This document shows positions 27,441 to 49,837 of a stretch of DNA of 64,000 nt, in pieces (positions within the stretch are counted from its first letter, which is position 1; each line of letters starts with the position of its first letter). The notes under the pieces are model-generated. The model was not told the DNA's origin. It saw only the letters and a program-made list of their open reading frames with translations, and made no database searches. This stretch comes from a virus (lineage: Duplodnaviria; Heunggongvirae; Uroviricota; Caudoviricetes). Made by a program: the position numbers and the translations under genes. Location of the stretch: IMG/VR virus record IMGVR_UViG_3300027608_000011. The stretch is one strand, 5' to 3'.

Positions 27441-28016
27441 TACCAAACTATCATACTCAGGGTTATCCACAAATCGCAACGATGCGACTACACGATGACT
27501 AGGATTGGTTCGGTTATCCACGTTGTGCCAGCTGTCTGTTTTGACCAATCTGACTTCGTTTAACGGAGGCATTGTTTCAACTGGTTCCCAATTAGTTTGA
27601 TCCAAACTGTCAGGAGCCAAATAAAAGTTGTATCCTTTTCTGTGCTCTTTGATTAATCTGGTTAGGCCTTCCGGATCGCTACGATCTTGATACCATACTT
27701 GTACTCCACTATCGCAGTTAAACAAGGGAATATTTAAAGCACATCGTTTAAATGGGAAATCATGCAAGTTACCATCAATGTGTATTCCACCAAAACTTTT
27801 TGCTTTGGTAACAAAGAACTTAACAGTAACAACAGGGCACACTGACTCAATCCAATTGAAGACCTTAATTGACCTTAATCGGTCAGGTAACATATCTGCA
27901 TAGTCGTGCGTTCCTTTTTGGTCCATTAAATCTTTGAATTCGGACAAGAATGTAGTTTGCAGTTTGGATTTTAACTGTGAGAAATCTGCAACAATTGGAG
28001 TAAAATAAGTTGACAT
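27396..28016 (-). CDS. HxD-cupin paralog family member
   Basis: IHIDGNLHDFPFKRCALNIPLFNCDSGVQVWYQD. Confidence 0.6.
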   Translation of the reverse strand: MSTYFTPIVADFSQLKSKLQTTFLSEFKDLMDQKGTHDYADMLPDRLRSIKVFNWIESVCPVVTVKFFVTKAKSFGGIHIDGNLHDFPFKRCALNIPLFNCDSGVQVWYQDRSDPEGLTRLIKEHRKGYNFYLAPDSLDQTNWEPVETMPPLNEVRLVKTDSWHNVDNRTNPSHRVVASLRFVDNPEYDSLVSGFAINKFSNESTS

Positions 28017-28070
28017 TAATTGGATTATATTGTATAATTTACTTATGTACTACGACTTAAGGAGTCAACA

Positions 28071-35576: not shown

Positions 35577-35605
35577 TTGACAATAAATCCAATTAAATAT
35601 ATAAT
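35577..35605 (+). promoter_or_regulatory. conserved early promoter, copy 1 (TTGACAATAAATCCAATTAAATATATAAT)
   Basis: member of an 8-copy family sharing hexamers and a 17 nt spacer. Confidence 0.6.
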
Positions 35606-35762
35606 ACTTAAACTATGAAGACTACTATTCAAATTGTTATCCCTAGACAGCGCACCCGTGCTCATAAGGTTCTGTTTGACCAAAATTCACCCTTTAAACA
35701 AAAAGTAGTACAATCAAAGGTGCAGTATACTCGCAGGGCTAAACACCCTGGAAAATCTGTCG

Positions 35763-35972
35763 ATGACAACTAAAAAGCAAATTGAGCAAGATATTCATAA
35801 TTATATTGCCCATACGTTAACCAAAAGGACCGGGGGCAACCCCCAACGAAAGATGTTGGCATTAGTGTATGTTGTTGGGTACTTGCAAAGTATATTAGCA
35901 GAATCGTTGTATGAAAATCCTACTTATATTCAGCAAAATTTGCTGGCTAGACTTAAAAAAGACAAAGATTGA
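35763..35972 (+). CDS. small early protein (69 aa)
   Basis: ORF behind promoter copy 1. Confidence 0.45.
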   Translation: MTTKKQIEQDIHNYIAHTLTKRTGGNPQRKMLALVYVVGYLQSILAESLYENPTYIQQNLLARLKKDKD

Positions 35973-35997
35973 CAATAAATCCAATTAATTATATAAT
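35969..35997 (+). promoter_or_regulatory. conserved early promoter, copy 2
   Basis: TTGACAATAAATCCAATTAATTATATAAT. Confidence 0.6.
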
Positions 35998-36039
35998 ATA
36001 CGCATAGTAAGAAATAAGGTTGTTCCAAAAAGACAAAGA

Positions 36040-36068
36040 TTGACATTAAATTGAATTAATTGTATAAT
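36040..36068 (+). promoter_or_regulatory. conserved early promoter, copy 3 (within a 70 bp tandem duplication)
   Basis: TTGACATTAAATTGAATTAATTGTATAAT; downstream ACGCATAGTAAGAAATAAGGTTGTTCCAAAAAG is duplicated at 35998 and 36068. Confidence 0.6.
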
Positions 36069-36089
36069 ATACGCATAGTAAGAAATAAG

Positions 36090-36370
36090 GTTGTTCCAAA
36101 AAGCGAGACACGCGAAAGCAAAAAGTCAAGCAAGGAACATTAAATGGGCAATTGCCCAGCCAATCGTATTAGGGGTTACCAACTCCAGTAGGTAACTTAG
36201 CAAGAGACTAATCTGTGGCCGCACAGACTCTTCTAAGTTACAAGAAACCTTGAGATAATATCAGGAGGACGCTGGAGCAAGTTGGCCTGTAATGTGGTTG
36301 ATAGACAAGTCTGTGGACGACACAGTAGGGCAGGTTCGAAACTGCGATCTCTATCAAACATCCCCTGGTT
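36090..36370 (+). ncRNA. promoter-driven ORF-less transcript (candidate sRNA) containing a tRNA-like fragment
   Basis: no SD or ORF between promoter copies 3 and 4; hairpins CTGTG-GCCG-CACAG and GGTTACC..GGTAAC; acceptor-like TGATAGA/TCTATCA pairing around a GCAGGTTCGAAACTGC T-arm-like hairpin. Confidence 0.35.
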
Positions 36371-36374
36371 TTGG

Positions 36375-36403
36375 TTGACAATTAATCCAATTAATTGTAT
36401 AAT
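36375..36403 (+). promoter_or_regulatory. conserved early promoter, copy 4
   Basis: TTGACAATTAATCCAATTAATTGTATAAT. Confidence 0.6.
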
Positions 36404-36431
36404 ATACACTTACACACTAAGGAGCCCAGCG

Positions 36432-36575
36432 ATGCAATACACATTGATCACCAGCAAGGGCAACATCATGCAATTTTATCTCAAAGAAGTAGCAGATCTG
36501 TATCAAAGCCTACAAGGCGGTGTTGTAATAACACAACAGATTTTGGTTGACAAAACCGTGCCAGTCGTAGTATAA
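36432..36575 (+). CDS. small early protein (47 aa)
   Basis: SD TAAGGAG then ATG; the longer tracked ORF 36282..36575 is a spurious N-terminal extension. Confidence 0.45.
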   Translation: MQYTLITSKGNIMQFYLKEVADLYQSLQGGVVITQQILVDKTVPVVV

Positions 36576-36607
36576 TTAGACATACTGAAACAATCGGAGC
36601 ATAAAAT

Positions 36608-36805
36608 ATGGGTTACAAAGTGTTTGAAAAGTCCGCATACGAGCCCCGTAAAGGGCTGGAAGGCCCATTCCATTACCCCAATGGGCGGGTACTGTACTAT
36701 GACCCTATAGCGGGCAAATACTGGGATCCACGCACCGATTTTTACGTGGAATATGAAGAAGTCCAGGACCTGATGGGCGAGATTTTTGCCCGAATTAGTG
36801 CATAA
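36608..36805 (+). CDS. small early protein (65 aa)
   Basis: SD GGAG. Confidence 0.45.
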   Translation: MGYKVFEKSAYEPRKGLEGPFHYPNGRVLYYDPIAGKYWDPRTDFYVEYEEVQDLMGEIFARISA

Positions 36806-36810
36806 ATTGG

Positions 36811-36839
36811 TTGACATTAAATCCAATTAATTGTATAAT
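36811..36839 (+). promoter_or_regulatory. conserved early promoter, copy 5
   Basis: TTGACATTAAATCCAATTAATTGTATAAT. Confidence 0.6.
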
Positions 36840-36875
36840 ATACACATAGACAGCAACAAACAGGAGTTAAAATTG

Positions 36876-37367
36876 AATTGTTCCCCTACTCTTACAGCCA
36901 ATGAATTTAAGACCATTCACAATGCATTGTGTGATTTGGATTCTGTTACACAATCTTTGGAAGACGTACTGAATAAGGATCTGTATATTAAATTGGCCAA
37001 GGCAACTAGTCAGATCCGCGAAGGCCTGGCCAATGCTTATGAGCAAGACAACAAAAGTTTCGACGAAAAAATGGACCATTACGACAGCGTTCGCACAGAG
37101 CTTGGCCTGACTGCAACCTGGAGTATTTTTGAAATAAACAATTTGTCAGAACGCCATCCATTTGGCGATGTATTGCAGGTCGCATACGTGGATCATTGGG
37201 GCGGCAGTCCAGTGTTTGTTGAAGTAAATGGATCAACATGGGCGGCATTGTATGTTGCGGCCAATGCGGCCATTCGCGACAGTGGCGACGAGCATCACAG
37301 TTTCATTGAAGAATTTAAGCCTAATCCCAAGAACCCGCAACAACTGTTTCTCCATACAGGAAGTTAA
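36876..37367 (+). CDS. early protein (about 164 aa), probable TTG start
   Basis: tracked ORF start 36831 lies inside the promoter -10; SD ACAGGAG at 36863 precedes an in-frame TTG. Confidence 0.45.
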   Translation, partial: NCSPTLTANEFKTIHNALCDLDSVTQSLEDVLNKDLYIKLAKATSQIREGLANAYEQDNKSFDEKMDHYDSVRTELGLTATWSIFEINNLSERHPFGDVLQVAYVDHWGGSPVFVEVNGSTWAALYVAANAAIRDSGDEHHSFIEEFKPNPKNPQQLFLHTGS

Positions 37368-37368
37368 T

Positions 37369-37614
37369 ATGAAAGTAAAAGATCTCATTGCAGAGTTGCA
37401 AGGCTTTGACCAGGACGCAGAAGTCCATTACGAATACTGTTACGGCGACCATTGGCGTACCAATGTAGCCCCAATGGTGCAGAGCATTGACGAGGGCGTT
37501 GTGGAGTACAGTGAGTACCACCGTATGGACAAGATGGCCAACTATGAGGACAGCTACGATGAGGACACGGGCGAGCCCAAAGAAGCCATACGCCGAGTAG
37601 TGGTATTGAGTTAA
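37369..37614 (+). CDS. small early protein (81 aa)
   Basis: SD CAGGAAG then ATG. Confidence 0.45.
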   Translation: MKVKDLIAELQGFDQDAEVHYEYCYGDHWRTNVAPMVQSIDEGVVEYSEYHRMDKMANYEDSYDEDTGEPKEAIRRVVVLS

Positions 37615-37628
37615 CTAAGGACATTGAA

Positions 37629-37835
37629 ATGAAGCAAGACTACACCATGTACATCTACAAGACGGACCGTCGTACCAAGACCAGCGAGCGGCTGTACAGT
37701 ACCACAGTTTGGACGGGTAGAGACGAAGCAGGCATGCAGAGAGAAGTTGAAGAACTGCACCTGCATCACTATCCCCGTAGCCAGTTCCGTATGGAATACA
37801 TCGCCTCGATGAAGACTGTTTCGGTTGACAATTAA
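37629..37835 (+). CDS. small early protein (68 aa)
   Basis: SD AAGGA. Confidence 0.45.
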   Translation: MKQDYTMYIYKTDRRTKTSERLYSTTVWTGRDEAGMQREVEELHLHHYPRSQFRMEYIASMKTVSVDN

Positions 37836-37853
37836 TCCAATTAATTGTATAAT
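37825..37853 (+). promoter_or_regulatory. conserved early promoter, copy 6
   Basis: TTGACAATTAATCCAATTAATTGTATAAT. Confidence 0.6.
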
Positions 37854-37885
37854 ATACACATAGACACTAAAAAGGAACGCGAAAA

Positions 37886-38194
37886 ATGAACACTGAACTT
37901 AGTCAATATACTGAAGCAATCAAAGCAGATTACTCCAAATGGAGTGACAAGGCTAACATTAATCCAGCAATGAAACGTGAATTTGAACAAAGTGTGGGTC
38001 TTGACTTTGGCCGCAAATACGTTAAAATTATAGTCAAAGGTTCCGTCCACAGTTTTGTGGTTTTGGAAAACACTAAAAAGTTCGCCAAAGGTGACATCCT
38101 TAAGGCCGCAACATTCAGTAGCCCTAGCACTAATTTTGCACGTGGTAACGTGTTTACACTAGACGAGTCCAAAGTCCAGTGGACAGGCGCTTGA
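37886..38194 (+). CDS. small early protein (102 aa)
   Basis: SD AAAGGAA. Confidence 0.45.
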   Translation: MNTELSQYTEAIKADYSKWSDKANINPAMKREFEQSVGLDFGRKYVKIIVKGSVHSFVVLENTKKFAKGDILKAATFSSPSTNFARGNVFTLDESKVQWTGA

Positions 38195-38219
38195 CATTAA
38201 ATCCAATTAATTGTATAAT
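38191..38219 (+). promoter_or_regulatory. conserved early promoter, copy 7
   Basis: TTGACATTAAATCCAATTAATTGTATAAT. Confidence 0.6.
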
Positions 38220-38246
38220 ACTTGTATTGTAACAAAGGAGCAGACA

Positions 38247-38525
38247 ATGCTAACTATCCAAGAAGTTAACTCAGCAATTATGACACAGTCGTGGACTAAC
38301 ACAGAACTGTCTAGTATGATTGATGCAGTCAAGTGGAACCGCAATGCCCTGGCACGCCAGATCAAACGAAGCATTGGTCGTGGTGACAATGTAGAGTTCA
38401 CATCCAGCAAGACAGGACGTCTGACACGTGGCTTTGTCACCAAGGTTGCTATCAAGTACGTTACAGTAGACACTGGCATGGGCCTGTGGCGTGTTCCTGC
38501 TAACATGCTGACAGTGGTGGCTTAA
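38247..38525 (+). CDS. small early protein (92 aa)
   Basis: SD AAAGGAG then ATG. Confidence 0.45.
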   Translation: MLTIQEVNSAIMTQSWTNTELSSMIDAVKWNRNALARQIKRSIGRGDNVEFTSSKTGRLTRGFVTKVAIKYVTVDTGMGLWRVPANMLTVVA

Positions 38526-38663
38526 ATGAAAGTCGTGTATAACGGTTTGCTGGGCGGATGGTATATTGTGCGAGGCGCACACCAGACACCAATCAGTGGC
38601 CGCTTTGACAGCAAAGAATTAGCTCTTGCACATCTTCGCCGTCGTAATCCATTGCATATCTAA
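38526..38663 (+). CDS. small early protein (45 aa, below ORF cutoff)
   Basis: ATG overlapping upstream TAA. Confidence 0.3.
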   Translation: MKVVYNGLLGGWYIVRGAHQTPISGRFDSKELALAHLRRRNPLHI

Positions 38664-38671
38664 GGAATAAT

Positions 38672-38920
38672 ATGTCAATTCGAATTAACGGTTTGCGCCA
38701 AAAAGAAATTCAGATGTTGAATACCATGTGGGAGTTTCAGGAATTGGAAGACCTCGAAGCATGGCAACAAACGTTGCGCCCCAGCGACTACCGTCTTAGC
38801 AAACAACTCATGAACATGGTTTTAATTGAATCACTGGATCAGCATATGGCCAAAGAAACTAAATTTCCGGATGCAAAGAAAGTGTTGTCTAAGTATATGC
38901 TAAACTCTTCAGGACTATGA
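38672..38920 (+). CDS. small early protein (82 aa)
   Basis: SD AAGGAA. Confidence 0.45.
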   Translation: MSIRINGLRQKEIQMLNTMWEFQELEDLEAWQQTLRPSDYRLSKQLMNMVLIESLDQHMAKETKFPDAKKVLSKYMLNSSGL

Positions 38921-39075
38921 TGTTGTACGATTGGGTTTTGATTCTTGTCCTGACAGCTGGCCCGTTGCCTAATCCAAACGTAGAAGTGATTAGCTATCAT
39001 GCTACTAAACAGGAATGTTTGGCAGTAAAAGGACAAAAGAAGAATTATATTTGTTTACCAATAGATAGGAATTGA
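38917..39075 (+). CDS. small membrane peptide (52 aa)
   Basis: ATGA overlap; hydrophobic helix. Confidence 0.3.
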   Translation: MMLYDWVLILVLTAGPLPNPNVEVISYHATKQECLAVKGQKKNYICLPIDRN

Positions 39076-39076
39076 T

Positions 39077-39394
39077 ATGGGATTTTTTAGTTGGCGATGT
39101 GCGAAATCAGATAAGCCGGTAATGGCCGAGTGCGCTGTTGGAGGCAGTTCGTGGGAGTTTGCCAGTAAGGTGGTAGTGCTGTTTAAAAACGGAGACCGCG
39201 TTTCAGGCACATATGATGGTTATGGGCGGGTAGACGGACTTGAACTAGTTGACCTTCCGGAAGAACGATGGCGAATGGTTATTGAAAAATACTACAACAA
39301 CGAGACGTTTGATCAACTGTCACAAAATAAACATGACAGAGGTCAGGGTTTCTTTTACAATGATGAAGACCTAGTAGAGGAATTTGGAGAATAA
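39077..39394 (+). CDS. small early protein (105 aa)
   Basis: ORF. Confidence 0.45.
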   Translation: MGFFSWRCAKSDKPVMAECAVGGSSWEFASKVVVLFKNGDRVSGTYDGYGRVDGLELVDLPEERWRMVIEKYYNNETFDQLSQNKHDRGQGFFYNDEDLVEEFGE

Positions 39395-39396
39395 TT

Positions 39397-39738
39397 ATGG
39401 GATTAGATATGTATGCGGTTGCCCGCAAAGAAGGCAAAGATCAAGTTGAAATTGCTTACTGGCGTAAGCACCCTAACCTGCATGGTTGGATGGAAAAACT
39501 GGCTGAATCAAAAAATCTAGAGTACGGCACATTCAACGGCGTTGAATTAGAACTGACCTGGGACGACTTAGATGAGTTAGAACTTACTGTTAAAGAAAAG
39601 TTGTTACCCAGTACTGGTGGATTTTTCTTTGGGAATAATGCAGACGAAGAATATTTTAACGACGACTTGCAATTTATTGGCGAAGCACGGTTAAAGATGG
39701 CCGCTGGTTATCAAGTTTTTTATGACAGTTCATGGTGA
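39397..39738 (+). CDS. small early protein (113 aa)
   Basis: ORF. Confidence 0.45.
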   Translation: MGLDMYAVARKEGKDQVEIAYWRKHPNLHGWMEKLAESKNLEYGTFNGVELELTWDDLDELELTVKEKLLPSTGGFFFGNNADEEYFNDDLQFIGEARLKMAAGYQVFYDSSW

Positions 39739-39741
39739 TGT

Positions 39742-39993
39742 ATGAAAGTAGTTAGCATTGATCCCAAAGACAGAGAGATTCAAAAAAATAAACTTGAGCT
39801 ACTAGAAGTACTAGACGAAATGCGAACTCAAATTGAGTCTGGGAACATAGTAGAGTTTGTTGCAGTTAGCATCTGCGAAAATGGAGAATGCCAAATTCAT
39901 GCTAAGGTAGGAGACCTTCCAACAGGAATAGGACTATTTGAAATTGGCAAGCACATGATGATTCAGCAAGAATCATATGATGATATTGAGTAA
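39742..39993 (+). CDS. small early protein (83 aa)
   Basis: ORF. Confidence 0.45.
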   Translation: MKVVSIDPKDREIQKNKLELLEVLDEMRTQIESGNIVEFVAVSICENGECQIHAKVGDLPTGIGLFEIGKHMMIQQESYDDIE

Positions 39994-40183
39994 CCTTAAG
40001 AGAAATAGTATGAACGACCGAATTACATTATTGGCATTGAAGGCAAGTGATCCTAAAACAGGTTGGCTAGATCGTCAAAAGTTCGCCGAATCGATTGTTC
40101 GAGAATGTGCCAATGTTGCCGCTGAACACGATGCATTGGACATTTACGAAGAGATTAGAGAACATTTCGGAGTTGAAGAATGA
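39977..40183 (+). CDS. small protein, GVEE-terminus family member 1
   Basis: ends EEIREHFGVEE; stop overlaps next start. Confidence 0.45.
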   Translation: MMILSNLKRNSMNDRITLLALKASDPKTGWLDRQKFAESIVRECANVAAEHDALDIYEEIREHFGVEE

Positions 40184-40344
40184 ATAAGTCTTTTATCGTT
40201 GTTTGTACTGAGTGTTCCGAAGAACATGAAACTGAAACCGTTAAATTCTTAAATATAGAGGAAGACATTCAAGGTCGTGATATCATGTACTTTGAATGCC
40301 CTGTAACTAACTTGGAGGCTAGAAGTCTGGTCTATGCAAAATGA
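40180..40344 (+). CDS. small Cys-containing protein (54 aa)
   Basis: ATGA overlaps on both sides; CTECS...CPV. Confidence 0.35.
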   Translation: MNKSFIVVCTECSEEHETETVKFLNIEEDIQGRDIMYFECPVTNLEARSLVYAK

Positions 40345-40568
40345 ACGAACGAATTCGAGAACTTGCTGAACAGGCTACATCTATTCAAGGCCCCACTCCT
40401 TACAATCCACTTACCTTTGAAGTGTTTGATAAAGAAAAGTTTGCCGAGTTGATTGTGCAGGAATGTATTGATATTATTGCTCCTTACACTGTTAGAATGA
40501 GCAGACCCGGTGAAGAATACTTACATCCTATCAGCGAGATTAAGAAAAATTTTGGAGTTGAAGAATGA
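40341..40568 (+). CDS. small protein, GVEE-terminus family member 2
   Basis: ends EIKKNFGVEE; also shares KFAEL/SIVQECI block with member 1. Confidence 0.45.
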   Translation: MNERIRELAEQATSIQGPTPYNPLTFEVFDKEKFAELIVQECIDIIAPYTVRMSRPGEEYLHPISEIKKNFGVEE

Positions 40569-40807
40569 ACGATTATGATATGACTATACACACGAATCCC
40601 GATGCAAGAGCCTGGGCTAAATTCTTTACTGAAAAGTATAAAGTATGGTCGGAAGATGGTGTTGAATCTGACTCTGAGGCCTTAATGACTGCATGGTTCG
40701 CCAATGCTATGATGGCGATGCACGATCATTTAGTATTGAAAGGTAATCCAATCAATGGAGATCATGCTCAATATCTTTTAGATAAAGAAAATGGAGTTGA
40801 AGAATGA
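40565..40807 (+). CDS. small protein, GVEE-terminus family member 3
   Basis: ends LDKENGVEE. Confidence 0.45.
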   Translation: MNDYDMTIHTNPDARAWAKFFTEKYKVWSEDGVESDSEALMTAWFANAMMAMHDHLVLKGNPINGDHAQYLLDKENGVEE

Positions 40808-40938
40808 ATGAATTTTTAAAAGAACTTGCAGTTAACGCAGGAGCGCCTAACGAAGTTATTAATGAACTTTGGTTTAATATTTTTTGCCAAAAGTTTGCAC
40901 ATCTATTGATGATTGAAATGGAAGAGGTATCAGAATGA
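40804..40938 (+). CDS. small protein (44 aa)
   Basis: ATGA overlaps. Confidence 0.3.
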   Translation: MNEFLKELAVNAGAPNEVINELWFNIFCQKFAHLLMIEMEEVSE

Positions 40939-41198
40939 CAGGTTATAAATATAAACGTGAAAAAGCCAAGGATATAGACGAGGCCGAACAAGAGAATCAA
41001 ATGAACGAAATTGTAACAGACACTGATCAGGCACTAGCGGACTTCTTTGCCAAGGGAGGCAAAGTGCAGTACATTGCCACAGGCGTTAGTGGAAATCCCG
41101 ATGGTATTAGTTATTCTGCATGGGGTGCTGGCCGTAAAAAATTGCCAGCGATGCCAGCAACGTTGGATCCAGCTGAATCTTCTGAAGATGAATCTTAA
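40935..41198 (+). CDS. small acidic protein (87 aa)
   Basis: ORF. Confidence 0.45.
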   Translation: MTGYKYKREKAKDIDEAEQENQMNEIVTDTDQALADFFAKGGKVQYIATGVSGNPDGISYSAWGAGRKKLPAMPATLDPAESSEDES

Positions 41199-41949
41199 AA
41201 GTAAACTGGCATTAATTTTACTGTTGGTAACAGTAAATTCCCATGCCTTTCTGTTACCAACAAAAGTCGAAGTTAAAGATAGCAGGCTTGGAAAAATAGT
41301 CGAAGTCCCGGTTGAAACTTGGACTAACTGGCGGCCCGGGCCAACTATCATATTGGCACATACTTGTGCAGGTATAATACGTCCTATGGACACTGATTGG
41401 GCCAATACTATTAAGAGTTGGGGTTACAATGTTGTTATACCAGACAGTTTTAATCCACGCGGCGTCAAGGAAACATGTTTACTTCCAAGAACAGTAAGTA
41501 TGACGCAACGAAATGAAGATATCTCAAGTGTGGCAGAATGGGTATGGAAGCAAAGTTGGCACAAAGGACCAATTGGTCTTATTGGTTTTAGTAATGGTGG
41601 TTGGTTAGTATTGGAAGCTAGTAACAGGCCATTGACCAATAAAATTGCGGCAATGGTTGCGTATTATCCATGGTGTGATGTTAAGTTTCATGGTAAACCT
41701 AAAATCCCCGTACAGATACATATAGGCAAACAAGACTCATGGACTCCTGCTGAACAATGCGAACCATTAGGTTCTGTCGTGGAACTTAATATATATGAAA
41801 ATGCTTACCATAGTTTTGACAGGCATGCACCTAGAAGAGTAAGGCCCGGGCACGGTGAAAAACTTCATGTGCTAGAGTATAATCCAATGGCAACTAAATT
41901 GGCGGCCGAGAGGACTAAGGACTTTTTCCAGCATTACTTAAAGGATTAA
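41188..41949 (+). CDS. secreted alpha/beta hydrolase (dienelactone-hydrolase/esterase-like)
   Basis: start moved to MNLKSKLAL signal peptide; nucleophile elbow GFSNGG; downstream Asp/His candidates. Confidence 0.6.
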   Translation: MNLKSKLALILLLVTVNSHAFLLPTKVEVKDSRLGKIVEVPVETWTNWRPGPTIILAHTCAGIIRPMDTDWANTIKSWGYNVVIPDSFNPRGVKETCLLPRTVSMTQRNEDISSVAEWVWKQSWHKGPIGLIGFSNGGWLVLEASNRPLTNKIAAMVAYYPWCDVKFHGKPKIPVQIHIGKQDSWTPAEQCEPLGSVVELNIYENAYHSFDRHAPRRVRPGHGEKLHVLEYNPMATKLAAERTKDFFQHYLKD

Positions 41950-42019
41950 TATCCTTTTGAATAATTGCTTGATCTATATTCTTGAATTATCTCAGAAATA
42001 GTATTAATTAAATTGATTA

Positions 42020-42250
42020 TCACGCCCATGATTTGTTCCTTTTATAATCGTACTCTTTGGTCCAGTGTTCTATATCTCCCACGGATTGTGGATATTTAGA
42101 GACTAGGAATAATTCTAGTTCTGTGCTATAATTAGACTGTGAAAAAAGAGTTTTAACATATGATTTGATTTTGTCTAACATTGTTTTATTCTCCGTAGAA
42201 ACACTTATAGCGTTTCTACTAATATTTATGTTGCACCGCAATAAACCCAA
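42020..42250 (-). CDS. hypothetical protein (76 aa)
   Basis: ORF on opposite strand in an AT-rich intergenic gap. Confidence 0.3.
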
Positions 42251-42265
42251 AAGAATAGGAAATAT

Positions 42266-42856
42266 ATGAGCTTAGTACCAATTGTAGTCGAACAAACCGC
42301 CAGGGGCGAACGTAGCTACGACATTTATAGTCGCTTACTTAAAGATAGAATTATTCTATTAGAAGGTGAAGTGCATGATCAAATGGCCAATCTTATTGTG
42401 GCCCAATTATTGTTTTTGGAAAGTGAAGAGCCGGCCAAAGACATCACCTTGTTTATAAATAGTCCGGGTGGAGTCGTAACCGCAGGGCTGGCAATTTATG
42501 ATACTATGCAGTATATTAAATGTGATGTTGCTACTATTGTAATGGGACAAGCCTGCTCTATGGGTAGTTTGTTAGCCCAAGCTGGCGCAACAGGTAAACG
42601 TAGTATTTTACCAATGGCCAGGCATATGATTCACCAGCCAAGCGGCGGGGCAAGAGGACAAGCAACTGACATGCAGATTCAAGTTAACGAGATTCTAGAA
42701 ATGAAAAAGAATCTAACAGACATTTATGTATTGCACAATAGCAAACGTAAAACAGTTAAGCAGTTAAGCACTGATATGGAACGAGATTTCTTTATGAGTG
42801 CTTCGCAAAGTGTTGAATACGGCTTGGCCGATCAAGTTATTACAAAAAGGCAATAG
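42266..42856 (+). CDS. clpP: ATP-dependent Clp protease proteolytic subunit
   Basis: 196 aa; colinear with bacterial ClpP including the catalytic Ser block [10 protein letters not shown] and His block HQPSGG. Confidence 0.9.
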
Positions 42857-42857
42857 T

Positions 42858-42965
42858 ATGGATATAATTGGATTTTTAATGTTAGCTGTTTTAGCCGGCG
42901 TGTTAATCTTTGTATTTTGCAAAATACTTGACGTATTATTTAATGATGATGGACCATTTAATTAA
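42858..42965 (+). CDS. small membrane peptide (35 aa)
   Basis: ATG two nt after clpP stop; single TM helix. Confidence 0.3.
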   Translation: MDIIGFLMLAVLAGVLIFVFCKILDVLFNDDGPFN

Positions 42966-42975
42966 GGAGAAAATT

Positions 42976-43683
42976 ATGTTTGGTAACAATTATGCTGATT
43001 ATTCTGTTAGCTACCGTAGCGCAGAACAAATCAATGAATCAATGGGTAGAGTATACTTCTACATGATGCTGGCCGTACTTAATAGTATGATTGTCAGTTA
43101 CTTTGTAGGTACTACACCAGAGCTATTGCAATTCTTTTTTACGGGTATATTGAAATGGGTTGTAATTTTTGCACCTATTGCGGCAGTGTTTGGTGTAATG
43201 TATGTGCTTGCACAGAATCCACCACGTGGTACTTGTCTAGCATTATTGCATGGATTTGCGGCACTAATGGGCCTGAGCTTTGCAATGATTTTTAAAGTGT
43301 ATACTATGGGATCCATTTTTGGAGCATTCATGAGTGCGGCGATCTTGTTTGGTGTAATGAGTGCATATGGATATTTTACCAAACGAAGTTTAGACAGTAT
43401 TGGTAAGTTTATGTTTATCGGATTGATTGCTATCATTATTGCCAGCATTGTTAATATCTTTATTGGTAGTACTGTGATGCAAATGGTTATCAGTGCCCTT
43501 GCAATTATTATCTTCTTGGGACTAACAGCCTACGACACACAACAGATCCGTGAAATGGTCAGTGATGAAAATAGCACTAGTGCCATGGAAGTAAGTGGCG
43601 CCTTAACTTTGTATATGGATTTTATTAATATCTTTATTAATTTGTTACAGCTATTTGGTATTGGTAACAGCAAAGACGACTAA
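42976..43683 (+). CDS. Bax-inhibitor-1/YccA family membrane protein (FtsH modulator family)
   Basis: start at Met after SD TAAGGAG; seven TM helices; C-terminus ALTLYMDFINIFINLLQLFGIGN parallels YccA SLYVSLYNIFVSLLSILGF. Confidence 0.75.
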   Translation: MFGNNYADYSVSYRSAEQINESMGRVYFYMMLAVLNSMIVSYFVGTTPELLQFFFTGILKWVVIFAPIAAVFGVMYVLAQNPPRGTCLALLHGFAALMGLSFAMIFKVYTMGSIFGAFMSAAILFGVMSAYGYFTKRSLDSIGKFMFIGLIAIIIASIVNIFIGSTVMQMVISALAIIIFLGLTAYDTQQIREMVSDENSTSAMEVSGALTLYMDFINIFINLLQLFGIGNSKDD

Positions 43684-44042
43684 TGCAAATATCCGGGTTC
43701 GGTGTTGATATGGTGGAAAGAGAACGTGTTGAACGCATGTTCTCTAGAAATCCAAAACGTTTAATAGACTTTTTATTTTCCGATTTGGAGAAACTAGAAG
43801 TTGACAAACTACAGGGTTCTGCTATAATAACATACATAACAAAACGCATTGCAGTCAAAGAAGCATATTTTAAAGCATTGGGTACAGGGATACAAAACTT
43901 AAGAGATTGGCAAAAAGTTTGGATCGAGCACGACAAATTTGGCGCACCTATTTTAAAAAATGTTCATAATAGAACAGGGATTATATCAATCACGGATACC
44001 AAAACAACAGCATGTGCCGTTGTTATTTTAGAAAAAATTTAA
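43683..44042 (+). CDS. acpS: holo-[acyl-carrier-protein] synthase (4'-phosphopantetheinyl transferase)
   Basis: 119 aa; ISGFGVDMVERERV and AVKEAYFKALGTGI blocks match AcpS LGLGTDIVEIARI / AVKEAAAKAFGTGI. Confidence 0.85.
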   Translation: MQISGFGVDMVERERVERMFSRNPKRLIDFLFSDLEKLEVDKLQGSAIITYITKRIAVKEAYFKALGTGIQNLRDWQKVWIEHDKFGAPILKNVHNRTGIISITDTKTTACAVVILEKI

Positions 44043-44043
44043 A

Positions 44044-44616
44044 ATGAAAATTAGTTTAAGAAAAGCAAGTCAGTTACAAACAAGTATCAATGACATGATC
44101 AAAGGCATCAGTCTTAAAGATTCTGTTGAACTAACAGAGTTCGAAGACGTAGATAAATCACTAGTTAATGCACGACAAGACCTTTTGAATTCTATGCAAC
44201 GAATTCAAAATCTGTACACAGCTCTATATCATATTCGCAATTTGATTGCCCATGCAAATGCAACCAGCGGCATTAACATCAAGCTGGGTGAAATTGCCAT
44301 GTATGATAAACGTATGGGATTGTTTAATCAAATTGGTTCACTGAAACCAATGGGTGACATTGATGTTATCAAAGGCAAATTAGACAAGATTAAGACCCGT
44401 GCGGAACCATCACGTGTTAACCTGTATGGTAGTATAGATACAGTAGATACATCAGTGTTGAAACCAGAAGATGTAGTCGGCTTTAAGCAAGCGGTACTTC
44501 AAGTGAAGAAAGTGAAAACTAAACTTCAGGATGAGGTATTGGAACTAAATGTTAAGACCGAAATTGACCTAAGTGAAGATGCTGAAAAGTTTCTAGCTTC
44601 GGAAGGTCTGGTATAA
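44044..44616 (+). CDS. hypothetical protein (190 aa)
   Basis: ORF. Confidence 0.5.
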   Translation: MKISLRKASQLQTSINDMIKGISLKDSVELTEFEDVDKSLVNARQDLLNSMQRIQNLYTALYHIRNLIAHANATSGINIKLGEIAMYDKRMGLFNQIGSLKPMGDIDVIKGKLDKIKTRAEPSRVNLYGSIDTVDTSVLKPEDVVGFKQAVLQVKKVKTKLQDEVLELNVKTEIDLSEDAEKFLASEGLV

Positions 44617-44873
44617 TTTTTCTGGTAGCTTTTATTTTAAAAAGTTACCCGTAGTCAAAAGAGATGAGAATAAGCACCTAAATAATCACTACGAACGATT
44701 ATTAACTGGCTTCAAAGTCTTAAAAACTTTGGAATACTTATGTGTTCTTGTATGATTTAATCTGTCATTTGTATACAAGAAATTTATAAGTTATGTTTTT
44801 TGTTTTTTTGCCAATTGTTTAATGTCAATTGTCCAGCTTATTACTTACTTTTGTCTACGTTTTTATTTTTGAA

Positions 44874-44899
44874 AATAGCCTATTAAGGGCTATTTTTAT
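44874..44899 (+). terminator. rho-independent terminator
   Basis: ATAGCC-TATTAA-GGGCTAT hairpin followed by TTTTTATTT. Confidence 0.65.
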
Positions 44900-44928
44900 T
44901 TGACAGTTAAATCCATTTAATGTATAAT
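44900..44928 (+). promoter_or_regulatory. conserved early promoter, copy 8 (TTGACAGTTAAATCCATTTAATGTATAAT)
   Basis: same family as copies 1-7. Confidence 0.55.
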
Positions 44929-44934
44929 AGTACT

Positions 44935-45288
44935 ATGACTACAAATGCTTTCATTCTAAGTTGGGATTGTACAGGGCTTGAAGCCGCAGTCCCTATTACT
45001 CAATATGAGCAATTGGATCACCAAAATTTGCTTAATGTTATAGCAGGCAAGCCAGAAGAAGAAAATCCCGTAGGCAACATTTTGTTTAGACTGAAAATTA
45101 GGGCCCAGTTCAATAGTCAAAGATTTTACGAAATATATGCAATAGACTGTGAAGAAGAGCTAACCCAAGATGATTGGCATAGTATGTTTAAAGATGCACC
45201 ACAGGCCATGGCCGAGTTAATCCGGGAAAGAGGAATTAAGATTTTTTGTAATCGTCGTAGTAGTAACCAACAAGTAGTAATATCATGA
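44935..45288 (+). CDS. hypothetical protein (117 aa), possibly leaderless
   Basis: first plausible ATG lies 7 nt after the -10 hexamer; the tracked start 44920 is inside the -10. Confidence 0.4.
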   Translation: MTTNAFILSWDCTGLEAAVPITQYEQLDHQNLLNVIAGKPEEENPVGNILFRLKIRAQFNSQRFYEIYAIDCEEELTQDDWHSMFKDAPQAMAELIRERGIKIFCNRRSSNQQVVIS

Positions 45289-47656: not shown

Positions 47657-47912
47657 TTTCAATATACGCAACCCATGGAGCGACCGTTTTGAAAACTTAT
47701 GGTGCCGTGGGTATGCTACACCATTTGATAACAAATTTATTGAACTAGAAGTTACTAGAGACTTCACTCTAGTATCATTTATGTTCGATTGGACTGTGCG
47801 GCAAAGCCATGCAGGTTTAAACATTGAACTAGGCCTATTTGGCTACTGTGTTCACTTTAACTTCTACGACAATCGGCATTGGAATTACGAAAAGAAAGCG
47901 TGGGAAATATAA
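47643..47912 (+). CDS. hypothetical protein (89 aa)
   Basis: ORF. Confidence 0.4.
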   Translation: MLSLNFNIRNPWSDRFENLWCRGYATPFDNKFIELEVTRDFTLVSFMFDWTVRQSHAGLNIELGLFGYCVHFNFYDNRHWNYEKKAWEI

Positions 47913-48997
47913 ATTTGTCTACTCTTGATTTATTTTCTCCTTGTAGCATTGGCTCAGTCAACTTAGATCATCGTGTGGTTATGAGTTCAATGACCCGACT
48001 TCGATGTGAAAACTATTTGCCCACAGATGATGTAGTAGCACATTATAGACAACGCAGTAGTCGTGGCGGATTAATCTTAACAGAATCTATAGCAGTTAAT
48101 CATGAAGGTGTTGCGTGGCCTCTTATGTCTGGCATATGGGATCTTGCACAAGTCAGCGCATGGAAGAATGTTACCAGAGCAGTACATTGTCAAGACGGAA
48201 AGATATTTGCACAATTATTTCATGCTGGTAGGATTTCTCACAGTTCAATATCTCCCGGGAATGTGCCGCCAAGCGCACCCAGCGCAATAAGGCCAGCTGG
48301 TTTAACTATAAATGCCTACGGACAAAAAGTACCGTATGAAATACCAACAGAAATGACATTGCCGGTAATTAATAGAACAATTAAATCATATGTTCAGGCC
48401 GCTAAAAATTGTGTTGCCGCAGAATTTGATGGCATTGAATTGCATTGTGGAGATGGGTTTTTACTGCAACAATTTATGAATAGTAAAACAAATTGCCGCA
48501 CTGACAAATATGGAGATCCGCTAGAGTTGATTAAAGAAATAATAACAAATATAAAGTCTGAAGTTAACATACCAATTGGAATTAAAATTACACCATTTAG
48601 TGTGCAGAATGATATTACACACGACAGCATTGAGTTGTATGAAAACTTATTAAGTAGTATCGATGGCATGATAAGCTATATAACAGTTGCAGATCCTAGA
48701 ATTAACGACGACAAAGACTTGGCCCGTGCCAATTTAGAACGCACAGTATCAATTGATGTGCCACTGCAATCAGTTATTGATATACTTAGGTCTGACTTTC
48801 ATGGCGTTATTATTGGTGTTGGTGGCTTTCAACCCGAATCAATTATTGAAACTAATGTAGACTTGATTGCATTTGGTAGATGGTTCACTTCAAACCCTTC
48901 ATTACCTGACAGGATCAAGAATAAAATGCCATTAACTATGTATGATACTTCAACATTTTATCGAGGCGGCAAGAATGGGTACACGACTTTTATGTAA
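47879..48997 (+). CDS. Old Yellow Enzyme family NAD(P)H:flavin oxidoreductase (start uncertain, possibly TTG at 47915)
   Basis: N-terminal LFSP..IGSVNLDHRVVMSSMTR, HAGR, and HCGDGFLLQQFMNS blocks typical of OYE/NemA. Confidence 0.75.
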   Translation: MELRKESVGNINLSTLDLFSPCSIGSVNLDHRVVMSSMTRLRCENYLPTDDVVAHYRQRSSRGGLILTESIAVNHEGVAWPLMSGIWDLAQVSAWKNVTRAVHCQDGKIFAQLFHAGRISHSSISPGNVPPSAPSAIRPAGLTINAYGQKVPYEIPTEMTLPVINRTIKSYVQAAKNCVAAEFDGIELHCGDGFLLQQFMNSKTNCRTDKYGDPLELIKEIITNIKSEVNIPIGIKITPFSVQNDITHDSIELYENLLSSIDGMISYITVADPRINDDKDLARANLERTVSIDVPLQSVIDILRSDFHGVIIGVGGFQPESIIETNVDLIAFGRWFTSNPSLPDRIKNKMPLTMYDTSTFYRGGKNGYTTFM

Positions 48998-49006
48998 ATA
49001 ATTGTT

Positions 49007-49837
49007 ATGTATAAAATTCTAATACTCCTAGCACTTTCTGTAAGTGCATACGCAAAACCAGTAGTACCAACAGTACCTGCTTCCCATGTATTATATGAAT
49101 ATGAGACCCACAGCTACTATGTTAAAGAAAATGTAGATCAGGTTAGGCCCATAGCTAGTATTACCAAATTGTTTACTGCAATTACTGTAATACGTAGTGG
49201 TGTAAACTTAGACGAAAAAGTTAAAGTACAAGGCAAAACATATGGCCATTTTCCACGTAACACAATGCCATCAAGAATCGATTTGTTACGTGCAGTAATG
49301 ATTAGTAGTGATAATCTTGCCGCCGAGAGTTTGGCCATGGCACATCCGGGCGGCTACGATCAGTTTTTAACTGATGTTAACTTGTATATAAAAAGTTTAA
49401 AATTAAAGAATACTGTGATTGTTGATCCTACCGGATTAGGCATTGGTAACGTAAGTACTGTGAATGATCTGATAGAAGTGTTAACTAATATAAAGAATAA
49501 TCCTGTAATTAAAAATATCAGTAACGAGAAACATGCAAAGATACAAGTTGCTAAAGGAAAGAAAACAATAACAATTAATCTTAATAATACAAACCCGCAG
49601 ATTTTCGTTTATAACAATATACTAATTTCTAAAACTGGATTTACAAATCCAGCTGGTAGATGCCTTGCACTTTTAATTGAAAAAAATGGTATACAATTTG
49701 CGGTGATTATATTAGGGCAAAAGGATGTACGAGCCAGAAGCAAAATAGTAGATATGCTAATGAGTGTCCCGGTACTACCACGTGAACCCGAGCCGCCATC
49801 GCCAGCAGTAGTTGTTGATTACAATATGTTTTTTTAA
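49007..49837 (+). CDS. secreted D-alanyl-D-alanine carboxypeptidase (S11 penicillin-binding-protein fold)
   Basis: signal peptide; SxxK (SITK), SxN (SSDN) and KTG (KTGFT) motifs in the correct order. Confidence 0.75.
   Translation: MYKILILLALSVSAYAKPVVPTVPASHVLYEYETHSYYVKENVDQVRPIASITKLFTAITVIRSGVNLDEKVKVQGKTYGHFPRNTMPSRIDLLRAVMISSDNLAAESLAMAHPGGYDQFLTDVNLYIKSLKLKNTVIVDPTGLGIGNVSTVNDLIEVLTNIKNNPVIKNISNEKHAKIQVAKGKKTITINLNNTNPQIFVYNNILISKTGFTNPAGRCLALLIEKNGIQFAVIILGQKDVRARSKIVDMLMSVPVLPREPEPPSPAVVVDYNMFF

What the first reader, a model, noticed from the sequence alone, without database searches (positions are those of the whole stretch)
35577..44928. Eight copies of a 29 nt hyper-conserved early promoter (TTGACA-TTAAATCCAATTAATTG-TATAAT) including a 70 bp tandem duplication and an ORF-less transcription unit
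The hexamers and the entire 17 nt spacer are conserved (about 25/29 identical) at 35577, 35969, 36040, 36375, 36811, 37825, 38191 and 44900, each followed by TA(C/T)AC(A/G)(C/T)ATAG and a small gene. Spacer conservation beyond what sigma70 requires implies an extra recognised determinant, such as a phage or host regulator site or an extended -10/UP-like element. Copies 2 and 3 sit in a 70 bp direct tandem duplication. Copy 3 drives about 280 nt with no ORF or SD (36090-36370) that contains a tRNA-like fragment, a candidate sRNA.
Basis: seen in the sequence. Interest (0 to 1): 0.55.

Follow-up and report, generated by a model that had tools for sequence, protein, structure and literature searches.

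The report
Phage early promoter cassettes plus new RNA
A large uncultured freshwater phage repeats one almost invariant host-type promoter, with a mirror-symmetric spacer, in front of its small early genes, and one copy drives a previously undescribed, widely conserved structured RNA rather than a protein.

Summary
Seven copies of TTGACA-N17-TATAAT with a near-identical spacer lie at 35577-38219, and a more divergent eighth lies at 44900. None is expected by chance. The flanking genes are unrelated.

The same 29-mer recurs at 28-29/29 identity in about ten other phage contigs whose proteins are only 35-80% identical. It is therefore a conserved regulatory cassette, not a duplicated gene block.

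The spacer forms a 21-bp near-palindrome, ACAAT(A/T)AAT-CCA-ATT(A/T)ATTGT. Its centre is sometimes inverted, and its variable positions are mirror-symmetric. Sister lineages keep the hexamers and the start region but carry a different spacer. This fits an extra dimeric factor but does not prove one. The closest known kinds are T4 'über' early promoters and PeSL cassettes.

The 71-bp tandem duplication is real and polymorphic among strains.

The ORF-less unit is the strongest result. It encodes a roughly 100-nt structured leader plus a roughly 200-nt core RNA (36171-36366). The core has at least 81 distinct homologues in freshwater metagenomes, 95.8% pairing, and compensatory changes in 29 of 57 pairs. 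It matches no Rfam family. In relatives it usually abuts tRNA-Glu inside tRNA arrays. Its function is unknown.

The parts
35577..35605 (+). Class-A promoter copy 1 (TTGACA ATAAATCCAATTAAATA TATAAT). It drives an essentially leaderless 52-aa ORF at 35615-35773, followed by a 69-aa ORF at 35763-35972.
   Evidence: both ORFs are also called in metagenome copies
35956..36103 (+). Tandem duplication of 71 nt, 2.1 copies. Each unit is a promoter plus the first ~42 nt of the RNA leader. All 4 differences between the units lie in the 17-nt spacer. The duplication is absent from some strains.
   Evidence: P=0.0024 for that clustering of differences; intergenic gap of 460 vs 389 nt among strains
35969..35997 (+). 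Class-A promoter copy 2 (spacer ATAAATCCAATTAATTA), in the first unit of the duplication.
36040..36068 (+). Class-A promoter copy 3 (spacer TTAAATTGAATTAATTG, centre CC changed to TG). This is the promoter of the RNA unit. The predicted start is the A at 36075.
   Evidence: conserved A 7 nt after the -10
36075..36170 (+). Structured 5' leader domain of the RNA transcript. Its fold is conserved in sister lineages.
   Evidence: 25 pairs, 6 with compensatory change in 10 sequences
36171..36366 (+). Core of a conserved structured non-coding RNA with ten helices. The 3' domain is a tRNA-like three-way junction with a T-loop-like hairpin.
   Evidence: 206 bits against model R1
36375..36403 (+). Class-A promoter copy 4, abutting the 3' end of the RNA. 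It drives a 47-aa ORF at 36432-36575.
36547..36576 (+). Perfect sigma70-type promoter of another class (18-nt unrelated spacer), inside the end of the 47-aa ORF. It drives the 65-aa ORF at 36608-36805.
36811..36839 (+). Class-A promoter copy 5 (exact consensus of the window). It drives a 164-aa ORF at 36873-37367 and two further small ORFs.
37825..37853 (+). Class-A promoter copy 6. It drives a 102-aa ORF at 37886-38194.
38191..38219 (+). Class-A promoter copy 7. It drives a 92-aa ORF at 38247-38525 and a long run of about 20 small + strand ORFs reaching 44616.
44874..44928 (+). Terminator-like hairpin (AATAGCC-loop-GGCTATT followed by a T run) directly followed by the divergent promoter copy 8 at 44900-44928. 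This copy drives a leaderless 117-aa ORF at 44935-45288.
   Evidence: hairpin read directly from the sequence
262..504 (+). Divergent second member of the RNA family (model match at 285-462). It sits in the ancestral context: promoter at 138, then a hairpin, then the RNA closed by CACTATATGTAAGCACA / TGTGTTTTCATATAGTG, then tRNA-Glu at 505.
   Evidence: (19.9 bits, E 7e-4 over the whole window)
28010..28038 (+). Degenerate relative of the class-A promoter with the spacer core inverted (AATTGGATT). It lies in front of a subtilase-like gene.

Best explanation
The eight sites are strong promoters for the host's primary-sigma (sigma70-type) RNA polymerase. They belong to one promoter-cassette family that a lineage of uncultured freshwater jumbo phages places in front of individual small ORFan genes in a plastic, presumably early, region.

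The cassette runs from a GG just upstream of the -35, through the whole 17-nt spacer, to a conserved start region (A at +1, in CATAG).

The spacer is not needed for basal promoter function, because perfect promoters with unrelated spacers exist in the same genome. Together with the last 3 nt of the -35 and the first nt of the -10, it forms a 21-bp dyad, ACAAT(A/T)AAT-CCA-ATT(A/T)ATTGT. I infer that this dyad is the binding site of a lineage-specific dimeric factor, most likely phage-encoded, that sits between the hexamers and switches this promoter class off or modulates it as a group.

The repeated near-identical cassettes also act as recombination substrates. This explains the 71-bp duplication that is polymorphic among strains, and the shuffling of promoter-leader modules between unrelated genes.

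One cassette, duplicated in this strain, transcribes a ~300-nt non-coding RNA instead of a protein gene. The RNA has a structured ~100-nt leader and a ~200-nt core. The core belongs to a widespread, previously undescribed RNA family that normally sits next to tRNA-Glu in phage tRNA arrays, so its maturation probably uses tRNA and RNase III-type processing.

Shown: the motif, its conservation across genomes, the dyad symmetry, the lineage specificity, the duplication polymorphism, and the RNA fold with its covariation. Inferred: promoter activity, early timing, the existence of a binding factor, and the processing and function of the RNA.
For: Motif and chance: 7 copies with at most 3 mismatches against 0 expected.

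Not a gene duplication: the repeat family spans only ~53 nt, and the downstream proteins are not paralogous.

Cross-genome conservation: 18 IMG/VR loci from about 10 contigs carry 2-4 copies each at 28-29/29 identity, with unrelated flanks. Shared proteins are only 35-80% identical.

Discrete class: among 175 distinct perfect TTGACA-N17-TATAAT sites, spacer distance to the consensus is bimodal, with 48 at 5 or fewer mismatches and the rest at 7 or more.

Dyad symmetry: 7.48 of 9 arm positions are complementary, against 3.77 +/- 1.26 for shuffled spacers, and four variants are perfect. Other promoters show none (3.05 vs 3.04).

Inverted centre: the central triplet is inverted in L001:3866 and in window 28010.

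Mirror-symmetric tolerance: the least conserved spacer positions (1, 3, 13, 15) are mirror partners in the dyad.

Lineage specificity: the orthologous RNA-unit promoters keep the hexamers and leader but carry G(A/T)TTGG..TTGGTGY spacers in sister lineages.

Recombination: the duplication is present or absent among strains, its 4 differences all lie in the spacer (P=0.0024), and the same leader is found on non-homologous genes.

RNA: folding z-score -4.4; at least 119 metagenome loci; 81 distinct cores; 95.8% of cells paired; 29 of 57 pairs with compensatory change against 5-13 in slid controls and 0/500 shuffles. The leader fold is conserved. 46 of 73 copies with adequate flanks lie within about 140 nt of tRNA-Glu.
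Against: No transcription start, timing or binding data exist, and the host is unknown.

No DNA-binding protein was recognisable among the early ORFs.

The commonest spacer variant is not a perfect palindrome (8 of 9). The A/T choices at the two mirror positions are not visibly coupled.

Instances from other contigs were collected by similarity to the motif, which inflates apparent conservation inside the 29-mer.

AT-rich conserved spacers also occur in strong T4 and T5 promoters without any known bound factor (PMC2988021).

For the RNA, no function or partner is known, and no terminator follows it in this window.
Confidence: 0.6

Rival explanations
1. There is no extra factor. The 29-mer is simply the best possible promoter for the host RNA polymerase, in the way T4 'über' early promoters and T5 early promoters are, with spacer sequence and shape sensed by sigma and core. 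The near-identity of copies within and between phages is maintained by homologous recombination and gene conversion between cassettes (PeSL-style concerted evolution). The dyad symmetry is incidental to an A+T-rich optimum.
For: T4 early promoters are documented to carry consensus beyond the -35, TGn, -10 and UP elements (PMC2988021). Sigma70 is reported to sense spacer sequence (PMC3130263, abstract listed). PeSL cassettes of RB49/phi1 have near-perfect TTGACA-N17-TATAAT and recombine (PMC4122927; PMC2839356). Here there is a polymorphic duplication, spacer-only differences between the duplicates, and shuffling of leaders between genes.
Against: The same genome uses about a dozen equally perfect hexamer pairs with unrelated spacers. 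Sister lineages keep the hexamers and start region but use a different spacer consensus. Conservation stops sharply at the cassette edges. The dyad is specific to this class and far above composition-matched shuffles, and its centre is found in both orientations.
Confidence: 0.33
2. The copies are remnants of recent duplication of whole gene cassettes. This is the refutation condition the first reader set.
For: Copies 2 and 3 are indeed a recent 71-bp tandem duplication.
Against: That duplication contains no gene. All other copies share only ~45-53 nt, and the downstream proteins show no similarity to one another. The motif precedes unrelated genes in other phages.
Confidence: 0.02
3. The palindromic spacer is primarily a DNA-level element: either a target for a site-specific recombinase or nuclease that moves ORFan cassettes, or a cruciform-forming, supercoil-sensitive switch. 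In this reading it is not a transcription-factor operator.
For: There are 9-bp inverted arms with a 3-nt centre that is found inverted. The region is plastic, with gene presence/absence differences among strains. The PeSL authors speculated about a dedicated recombination protein (PMC2839356).
Against: Arms this short and A+T-rich extrude poorly. No recombinase gene was seen in the region. The exact registration of the dyad between the -35 and the -10 points to a transcriptional role.
Confidence: 0.07
4. The ORF-less transcript is not a trans-acting RNA. It would be either a decayed tRNA or tRNA-array fragment, or a long cis-acting leader of the downstream 47-aa gene.
For: It contains a tRNA-like three-way junction and a T-loop-like hairpin. 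Relatives sit in tRNA arrays. No terminator separates it from the next gene.
Against: There are 81 distinct copies with 95.8% pairing and compensatory change in 29 of 57 pairs across ten helices, which is not expected of a pseudogene. The downstream gene has its own class-A promoter abutting the RNA. In relatives the downstream neighbour is a tRNA or a different gene.
Confidence: 0.1

Closest known systems
Bacteriophage T4 early ('über') promoters and their counterparts in T4-like phages (Hinton 2010, PMC2988021; Nolan et al. 2006, PMC1524935)
   Same: Both are used by unmodified host sigma70 polymerase. Both occur in many copies in front of small, often novel, early ORFs and tRNA genes. Both carry consensus that extends beyond the two hexamers, including a preferred start region.
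   Different: The -35 here is TTGACA, not GTTTAC. There is no TGn extended -10 and only a weak upstream A/T bias. The whole 17-nt spacer is fixed and dyad-symmetric. The phage appears related to PA5oct/Rak2-type jumbo phages rather than to T4.
PeSL (promoter-early stem-loop) cassettes of RB49/phi1, PST/T4 and nt-1/KVP40 (Arbiol 2010, PMC2839356; Comeau 2014, PMC4122927)
   Same: Both are near-perfect TTGACA-N17-TATAAT promoters repeated between ORFans of hyperplastic regions. Both include a conserved Shine-Dalgarno and leader part. Both are associated with insertions, deletions and module exchange between close relatives. Here that is the 71-bp duplication polymorphism and the gene presence/absence differences.
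   Different: The defining upstream terminator stem-loop is absent at 7 of 8 copies. Conservation here is concentrated in the spacer, which the papers I read do not mention as conserved. Mini-circle formation was not tested.
Pseudomonas jumbo phage PA5oct promoters and non-coding RNAs (Lood et al. 2020, PMC7318152)
   Same: PA5oct is a protein-level relative. It depends on host RNA polymerase, has 32 conserved TTGAC / TATAATA promoters, and has four ORF-less, in part highly transcribed, RNAs of 236-619 nt with unknown function.
   Different: There is no sequence or structure match between the RNA family here and PA5oct ncRNA001 or ncRNA002. The PA5oct promoter spacer was not examined here.
T4 stable RNAs, species 1 (rnaC, 139 nt) and species 2 (rnaD, 119 nt)
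   Same: Both are ORF-less stable RNAs encoded inside a phage tRNA gene cluster (annotation), with a tRNA-like T-arm at the 3' end (sequence). A hairpin loop UUUGACGG in rnaC resembles the UUGACGGA loop of most family members.
   Different: The RNA here is larger, with a 176-225-nt core. The covariance model finds no match in the T4 region. The function is unknown in both, to my knowledge.
Bacterial and phage Y RNAs of the YrlA type (Chen et al. 2014, PMC4201824)
   Same: The design is modular: a long stem formed by the 5' and 3' ends (in the array-embedded copies) plus a tRNA-like domain. The phage also encodes a DUF2828 + vWA-type 'RNA-binding protein' in its tRNA region.
   Different: Y RNAs are 80-130 nt and lie next to a TROVE/Ro60 gene. 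Here the protein matches DUF2828, and no TROVE-domain match was reported. It lies 3.6 kb from the divergent copy and 31 kb from the canonical copy. Only one of the fetched relatives has it, about 5 kb from the RNA. There is no recognisable D-arm and no Rfam match.

Membership tests
sigma70-type (primary sigma) bacterial promoter | -35 hexamer TTGACA and -10 hexamer TATAAT separated by 17 +/- 1 bp | tested here: met
   12 of 12 hexamer positions match, with a 17-bp spacer, in all eight copies
sigma70-type (primary sigma) bacterial promoter | Correct orientation and distance upstream of a gene or RNA | tested here: met
   All copies are on the + strand, 7-45 nt upstream of a start codon, of the RNA, or (copy 2) of the next copy
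sigma70-type (primary sigma) bacterial promoter | Mapped transcription start / activity with holoenzyme | not testable with these tools
   No transcript data. The +1 at the conserved A, 7 nt after the -10, is inferred.
T4-type 'über' early promoter | Extended -10 TGn at -15/-14 | tested here: not met
   TG lies at -14/-13; the scan reports 'TG_before_second: no' for all class-A copies
T4-type 'über' early promoter | A-rich UP element around -40 to -52 | tested here: inconclusive
   Only a weak A/T preference plus a conserved GG directly upstream of the -35; information is at most 0.4 bit per position further upstream
T4-type 'über' early promoter | Additional consensus outside the canonical elements | tested here: met
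   The entire spacer and positions +1, +2, +4 and +7 are conserved
PeSL cassette | Strong sigma70-like early promoter with a conserved SD/leader between ORFans of a hyperplastic region | tested here: met
   (ORFans with no or unknown-function PHROG hits)
PeSL cassette | Stem-loop terminator immediately upstream of the promoter | tested here: not met
   No terminator-like hairpin lies upstream of the seven clustered copies. Only copy 8 at 44900 has one.
PeSL cassette | Association with indels or replacements between close relatives | tested here: met
   The 71-bp promoter duplication is present or absent among strains. The 45-aa and 63-aa genes are present or absent among strains, and a 69-aa gene replaces the 92-aa gene in one strain.
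PeSL cassette | Formation of mini-circles by recombination between cassettes | not testable with these tools
   Requires inverse PCR on infected cells
tRNA | Cloverleaf recognised by tRNA finders | tested here: not met
   No ARAGORN call and no Rfam tRNA match at 36075-36374
Y RNA / YrlA | 80-130 nt, with a long terminal stem and a tRNA-like domain carrying D- and T-arms | tested here: inconclusive
   The core is 176-225 nt. A terminal ~20-bp stem is present only in array copies. A T-loop-like hairpin is present and no D-arm is seen.
Y RNA / YrlA | Encoded next to a Ro60/TROVE gene | tested here: not met
   The DUF2828 protein is at 4065-5480 and the RNA at 36171 and 285. Only L071 among the fetched relatives has the protein, about 5 kb from the RNA.
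Y RNA / YrlA | Match to a curated covariance model | tested here: not met
   No Rfam family at E<=10 on the window copy, or at E<=1 on 11 loci holding relatives
T4 species 1/2 stable RNAs | Homology to rnaC or rnaD | tested here: not met
   Model R1 with filters off finds nothing at rnaC/rnaD; nhmmer finds nothing
T4 species 1/2 stable RNAs | ORF-less RNA embedded in a phage tRNA cluster | tested here: met
   Most relatives and the divergent window copy abut tRNA genes

The most novel reading that the evidence does not exclude
Two parts. First, the promoter-driven ~300-nt transcript is the founding example of a new class of phage non-coding RNA that works together with tRNA-Glu or the tRNA machinery. 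Candidate roles are a tRNA mimic or decoy against host tRNA-targeting defences, or the RNA partner of the phage's Ro-like DUF2828-vWA protein. Second, the mirror-symmetric spacer is the operator of a still unidentified, lineage-specific phage regulator that times this RNA and the ORFan genes as one regulon.
Probability: 0.25. Interest if true: 0.75.

Novelty: new variant of a known kind. Interest (0 to 1): 0.58.

Why it matters
Promoter. Repeated strong early promoters are a known phage strategy. Here nature provides a clean comparison: the same transcription units keep the hexamers and start region across lineages but swap the entire spacer for a lineage-specific one, and one of those spacers is a 21-bp dyad. 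That makes testable the long-standing question of what the 'extra' information in phage early promoters does (RNA polymerase optimum, regulator site, or recombination handle), using simple spacer-swap constructs.

RNA. A ~200-nt RNA with ten covarying helices is present in at least 119 freshwater metagenome contigs and absent from Rfam, from 50,697 deposited phage records and, with one exception (a 2.9-kb MAG contig), from 185,579 bacterial and archaeal species genomes. It is a solid new entry in the small list of phage-encoded structured RNAs. Its habitual position next to tRNA-Glu gives a concrete lead to its function.

Tried and rejected
1. blastn of the region and of the RNA against deposited phages found no match. 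Only the tRNA-Glu flank matched.
2. An exact 21-mer from the RNA's 5' part found nothing in IMG/VR. A 3'-domain pattern in metagenomes was needed instead.
3. I looked for the RNA in the promoter-bearing IMG/VR loci and found none. The apparently ORF-less unit after L001:3866 is a ~110-aa ORF starting a few nt after the -10.
4. Model R1 against T4 rnaC/rnaD, PA5oct ncRNA001/002, and the KVP40 and Acibel004 tRNA arrays gave no match.
5. The Rfam library gave nothing beyond chance.
6. PHROG and Pfam scans of about 30 early ORFs, run to nominate a DNA-binding regulator, found no candidate.
7. I considered that spacers of the sister lineage are also palindromes, after seeing GGTCTT-CCAA-AAGACC and similar cases. 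The shuffle test rejected this (3.05 vs 3.04).
8. Linkage of the RNA to the DUF2828 protein held in only one of the fetched loci.
9. The equal lengths of the gene pairs 7524-9477 and 47879-49837 (372 and 276 aa) are probably a coincidence: the second pair matches known enzyme families and the first pair matches none.
10. Resemblances of the dyad to known operator consensus sequences (Fur, NrdR, ArcA, IHF, LexA), compared from memory, were not convincing and were not pursued.

Full report
**What the window is.** The 64-kb window carries 22 tRNA genes at 0.5-20.4 kb, many small + strand ORFs, and accessory genes. The accessory genes include a subtilase, a sulfate permease, ClpP, a radical-SAM enzyme, dCMP deaminase, QueD and a DUF2828+vWA 'RNA-binding protein'. 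No deposited phage matches it at the DNA level. A Pol III-alpha-like fragment is closest to PA5oct, CBB and Rak2-type jumbo phages. Exact copies of its proteins occur on contigs from freshwater-lake metagenomes, one of them 0.2-1 Mb long. It is an uncultured freshwater jumbo phage. Betaproteobacteria-type tmRNA fragments in relatives hint at the host group.

**The observation.** The 29-mer occurs seven times between 35577 and 38219 with 0-3 mismatches, against 0 expected. The copy at 44900 has perfect hexamers and a shifted, related spacer. The repeat family is only ~53 nt long, and the proteins behind the copies are unrelated to each other. The 71-nt tandem duplication at 35956-36103 is real at 94% identity. 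Only half of the copies carry ATAC(G/A)CATAG. Copies 1 and 8 precede essentially leaderless genes.

**A discrete promoter class.** The window holds about 15 perfect and about 13 one-mismatch TTGACA-N16-18-TATAAT sites, nearly all on the + strand and in front of genes or tRNAs. Most have unrelated spacers. I pooled the window with all fetched relatives, giving 175 distinct perfect sites. Their spacer distance to ATAAATCCAATTAATTG is bimodal: 48 lie at 5 or fewer mismatches and the rest at 7 or more. The conserved spacer therefore defines a class. It is not what the polymerase needs in general.

**Conservation across genomes.** An exact-pattern scan of IMG/VR found the 29-mer in 18 loci from about 10 contigs of up to 231 kb, with 2-4 copies per locus. 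Proteins shared with the window are 35-80% identical, whereas the promoter is 28-29/29 identical. Across 39 distinct instances, conservation starts at a GG two bases before the -35. It runs through the spacer and the A after the -10. It reappears at four positions that fit +1, +2, +4 and +7 (A, T, G, A, as in cATAGtaA), then fades into the Shine-Dalgarno region. Identical leaders precede non-homologous genes, and homologous genes carry different leaders. Promoter-leader modules are therefore exchanged.

**Anatomy of the spacer.** With the ACA of the -35 and the first T of the -10, the spacer forms ACAAT(A/T)AAT-CCA-ATT(A/T)ATTGT. Mean arm complementarity is 7.48 of 9, against 3.77 +/- 1.26 for composition-matched shuffles, and four variants are perfect. 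Promoters of other classes show no symmetry (3.05 vs 3.04). The central triplet is inverted (TGG) in L001:3866 and in window 28010, and half-changed (TGA) in the promoter of the RNA unit. The least conserved spacer positions (1, 3, 13, 15) are mirror partners in the dyad. This is the tolerance pattern expected for a symmetric dimer, but it does not show that a protein binds. There is no extended -10.

**Lineage specificity.** The RNA transcription unit described below exists with its own promoter in several lineages. All keep TTGACA, TA(T/C)AAT, the GG upstream, the start region and the leader. The spacer differs: it is class-A in the window's lineage and G(A/T)TTGG...(A/T)TTGGTG(T/C) in a sister lineage. 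An orthologous promoter has thus had its spacer replaced by the house style of each lineage. That fits either a co-evolving factor or lineage-wide homogenisation by recombination.

**Recombination.** Strains carrying identical flanking proteins differ by exactly one 71-nt unit, with a gap of 460 versus 389 nt. The two units in the window differ at 4 positions, all inside the 17-nt spacer (P=0.0024). Strains also differ in the presence of small genes downstream. This matches the behaviour described for PeSL cassettes, but the defining upstream stem-loop is missing at 7 of 8 copies.

**The ORF-less unit.** From the predicted start at 36075 to the next -35 at 36375 there is no + strand ORF contained within the interval. 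The RNA folds far better than shuffles, with z = -4.4. Strain variants already showed four compensatory pairs. A 20-nt pattern from the 3' domain retrieved at least 119 metagenome loci, and the scan was truncated. nhmmer finds 122 full-length copies with 81 distinct cores of 176-225 nt. On 31 diverse members, a ten-helix structure has 95.8% of cells paired. Compensatory change occurs in 29 of 57 pairs, against 5-13 when partners are slid and in 0/500 shuffles. The ~100-nt leader also has a conserved fold, with 6 of 25 pairs compensatory in 10 sequences.

**Features and context of the RNA.** The core comprises:
- a terminal helix;
- a CCAA..CCAG / CUGG..UUGG helix;
- a long hairpin whose apical loop is usually UGACGG;
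- a variable arm;
- a conserved GUAAUGUG linker;
- a 3' three-way junction with a 7-8-bp stem, a GGACG-loop hairpin and a T-loop-like hairpin.

No Rfam family matches. The RNA is absent from deposited phages. Among 185,579 bacterial and archaeal genomes the pattern hits only one 2.9-kb MAG contig. Of 73 copies with adequate flanks, 46 have a tRNA-Glu gene within about 140 nt. Often the encoded ACCA end of the tRNA is part of a ~20-bp stem that closes the RNA. From general knowledge of RNase III substrates, I take this stem to be a likely RNase III substrate. Other copies have their own promoter and leader, as in this window.

**A second copy in the window.** A divergent member lies at 285-462 (19.9 bits, E 7e-4) in the ancestral position directly upstream of tRNA-Glu at 505.

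**Comparison with known systems.**
- Promoter: the closest kinds are T4-type early promoters with extra consensus and PeSL cassettes. PA5oct, a protein-level relative, uses host polymerase and conserved TTGAC/TATAATA promoters. The fully fixed, dyad-symmetric, lineage-specific spacer is the new variant.
- RNA: the nearest analogues are the T4 stable RNAs rnaC and rnaD in the tRNA cluster, YrlA-type Y RNAs and the PA5oct ncRNAs. Membership tests for each failed or were inconclusive.

**Verdict.** The reading as a regulatory element is right. The extra determinant is plausible and now has a concrete shape, but it is unproven. The 'candidate sRNA' is a well-supported new structured RNA family of unknown function.

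Noticed in passing
window 262-504: A second, strongly diverged member of the same RNA family sits directly upstream of tRNA-Glu (505-579). It is closed by a 17-nt stem of its flanks, and its 3' tRNA-like domain is replaced by a different hairpin. A 91%-identical relative of the gene at 7524 (L143) has a canonical copy of the RNA ~500 nt upstream of that gene, so the RNA moves around within these genomes.
   Followed up: partly
window 35577-35617 and 44900-44937; also L001:3866, L001:4294, L015:1349: Several class-A promoters are followed by an ATG only 6-10 nt after the -10 hexamer with no Shine-Dalgarno sequence. These are leaderless or nearly leaderless early mRNAs, and they recur in related phages.
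   Followed up: no
window 4065-5480: A 471-aa DUF2828 + DUF7788 (vWA-like) protein, annotated 'RNA-binding protein' in PHROGs, is embedded between tRNA genes. Homologues at 43-48% identity occur in over 700 phage records of very different hosts. It is a possible Ro-like partner for phage RNAs. A homologue lies about 5 kb from the RNA in L071.
   Followed up: partly
loci L046, L047, L053, L065, L094, L125, L138, L139, L151 and others: A sister lineage has its own promoter house style: TTGG-TTGACA-G(A/T)TTGG..AAAG/TTGGTG(C/T)-TATAAT followed by AACACATA. ATTGG-like words recur upstream of the -35 and twice in the spacer. In class-A promoters the same word appears as AATTGG (upstream), CCAATT (centre, inverted) and AATTG (before the -10).
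   Followed up: partly
L074 427-633 and 748-946; L056 and L084: One contig carries two different members of the RNA family separated only by a tRNA-Glu gene. Two other contigs have a Betaproteobacteria-type tmRNA fragment about 400 nt upstream of the RNA, which hints both at a phage-encoded tmRNA and at the host group.
   Followed up: no
window 3159-3250: ARAGORN calls a 92-nt tRNA-Ile(tat), with the anticodon at position 31, that Rfam's tRNA model did not report at gathering score. It may be an odd or intron-containing tRNA, or a false call.
   Followed up: no
window 38526-38920 versus L024, L026, L029: Strains with identical early proteins differ in the small genes after the 92-aa ORF. A 45-aa gene and a 63-aa gene are each present or absent, and a 69-aa gene replaces the 92-aa gene in L029. 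The region is therefore actively gaining and losing ORFans.
   Followed up: partly
window 41047-44616: At the end of the long ORFan operon is a run of cellular-type genes: a dienelactone-hydrolase-like gene, ClpP, a Bax-inhibitor-1-like membrane protein and a 4'-phosphopantetheinyl transferase (ACPS). This is an unusual auxiliary set for a phage.
   Followed up: no
window 36118-36165 versus L063, L074, L080, L119, L143, L148: The second half of the RNA leader (GCAAAAAGTCAAGCAAG..CATTAAATGGGC..GCCCAGCCAATC) also occurs in array-embedded relatives, there about 95 nt further upstream of the core. In the window's lineage a deletion seems to have fused the leader directly to the core and removed the long closing stem.
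   Followed up: no
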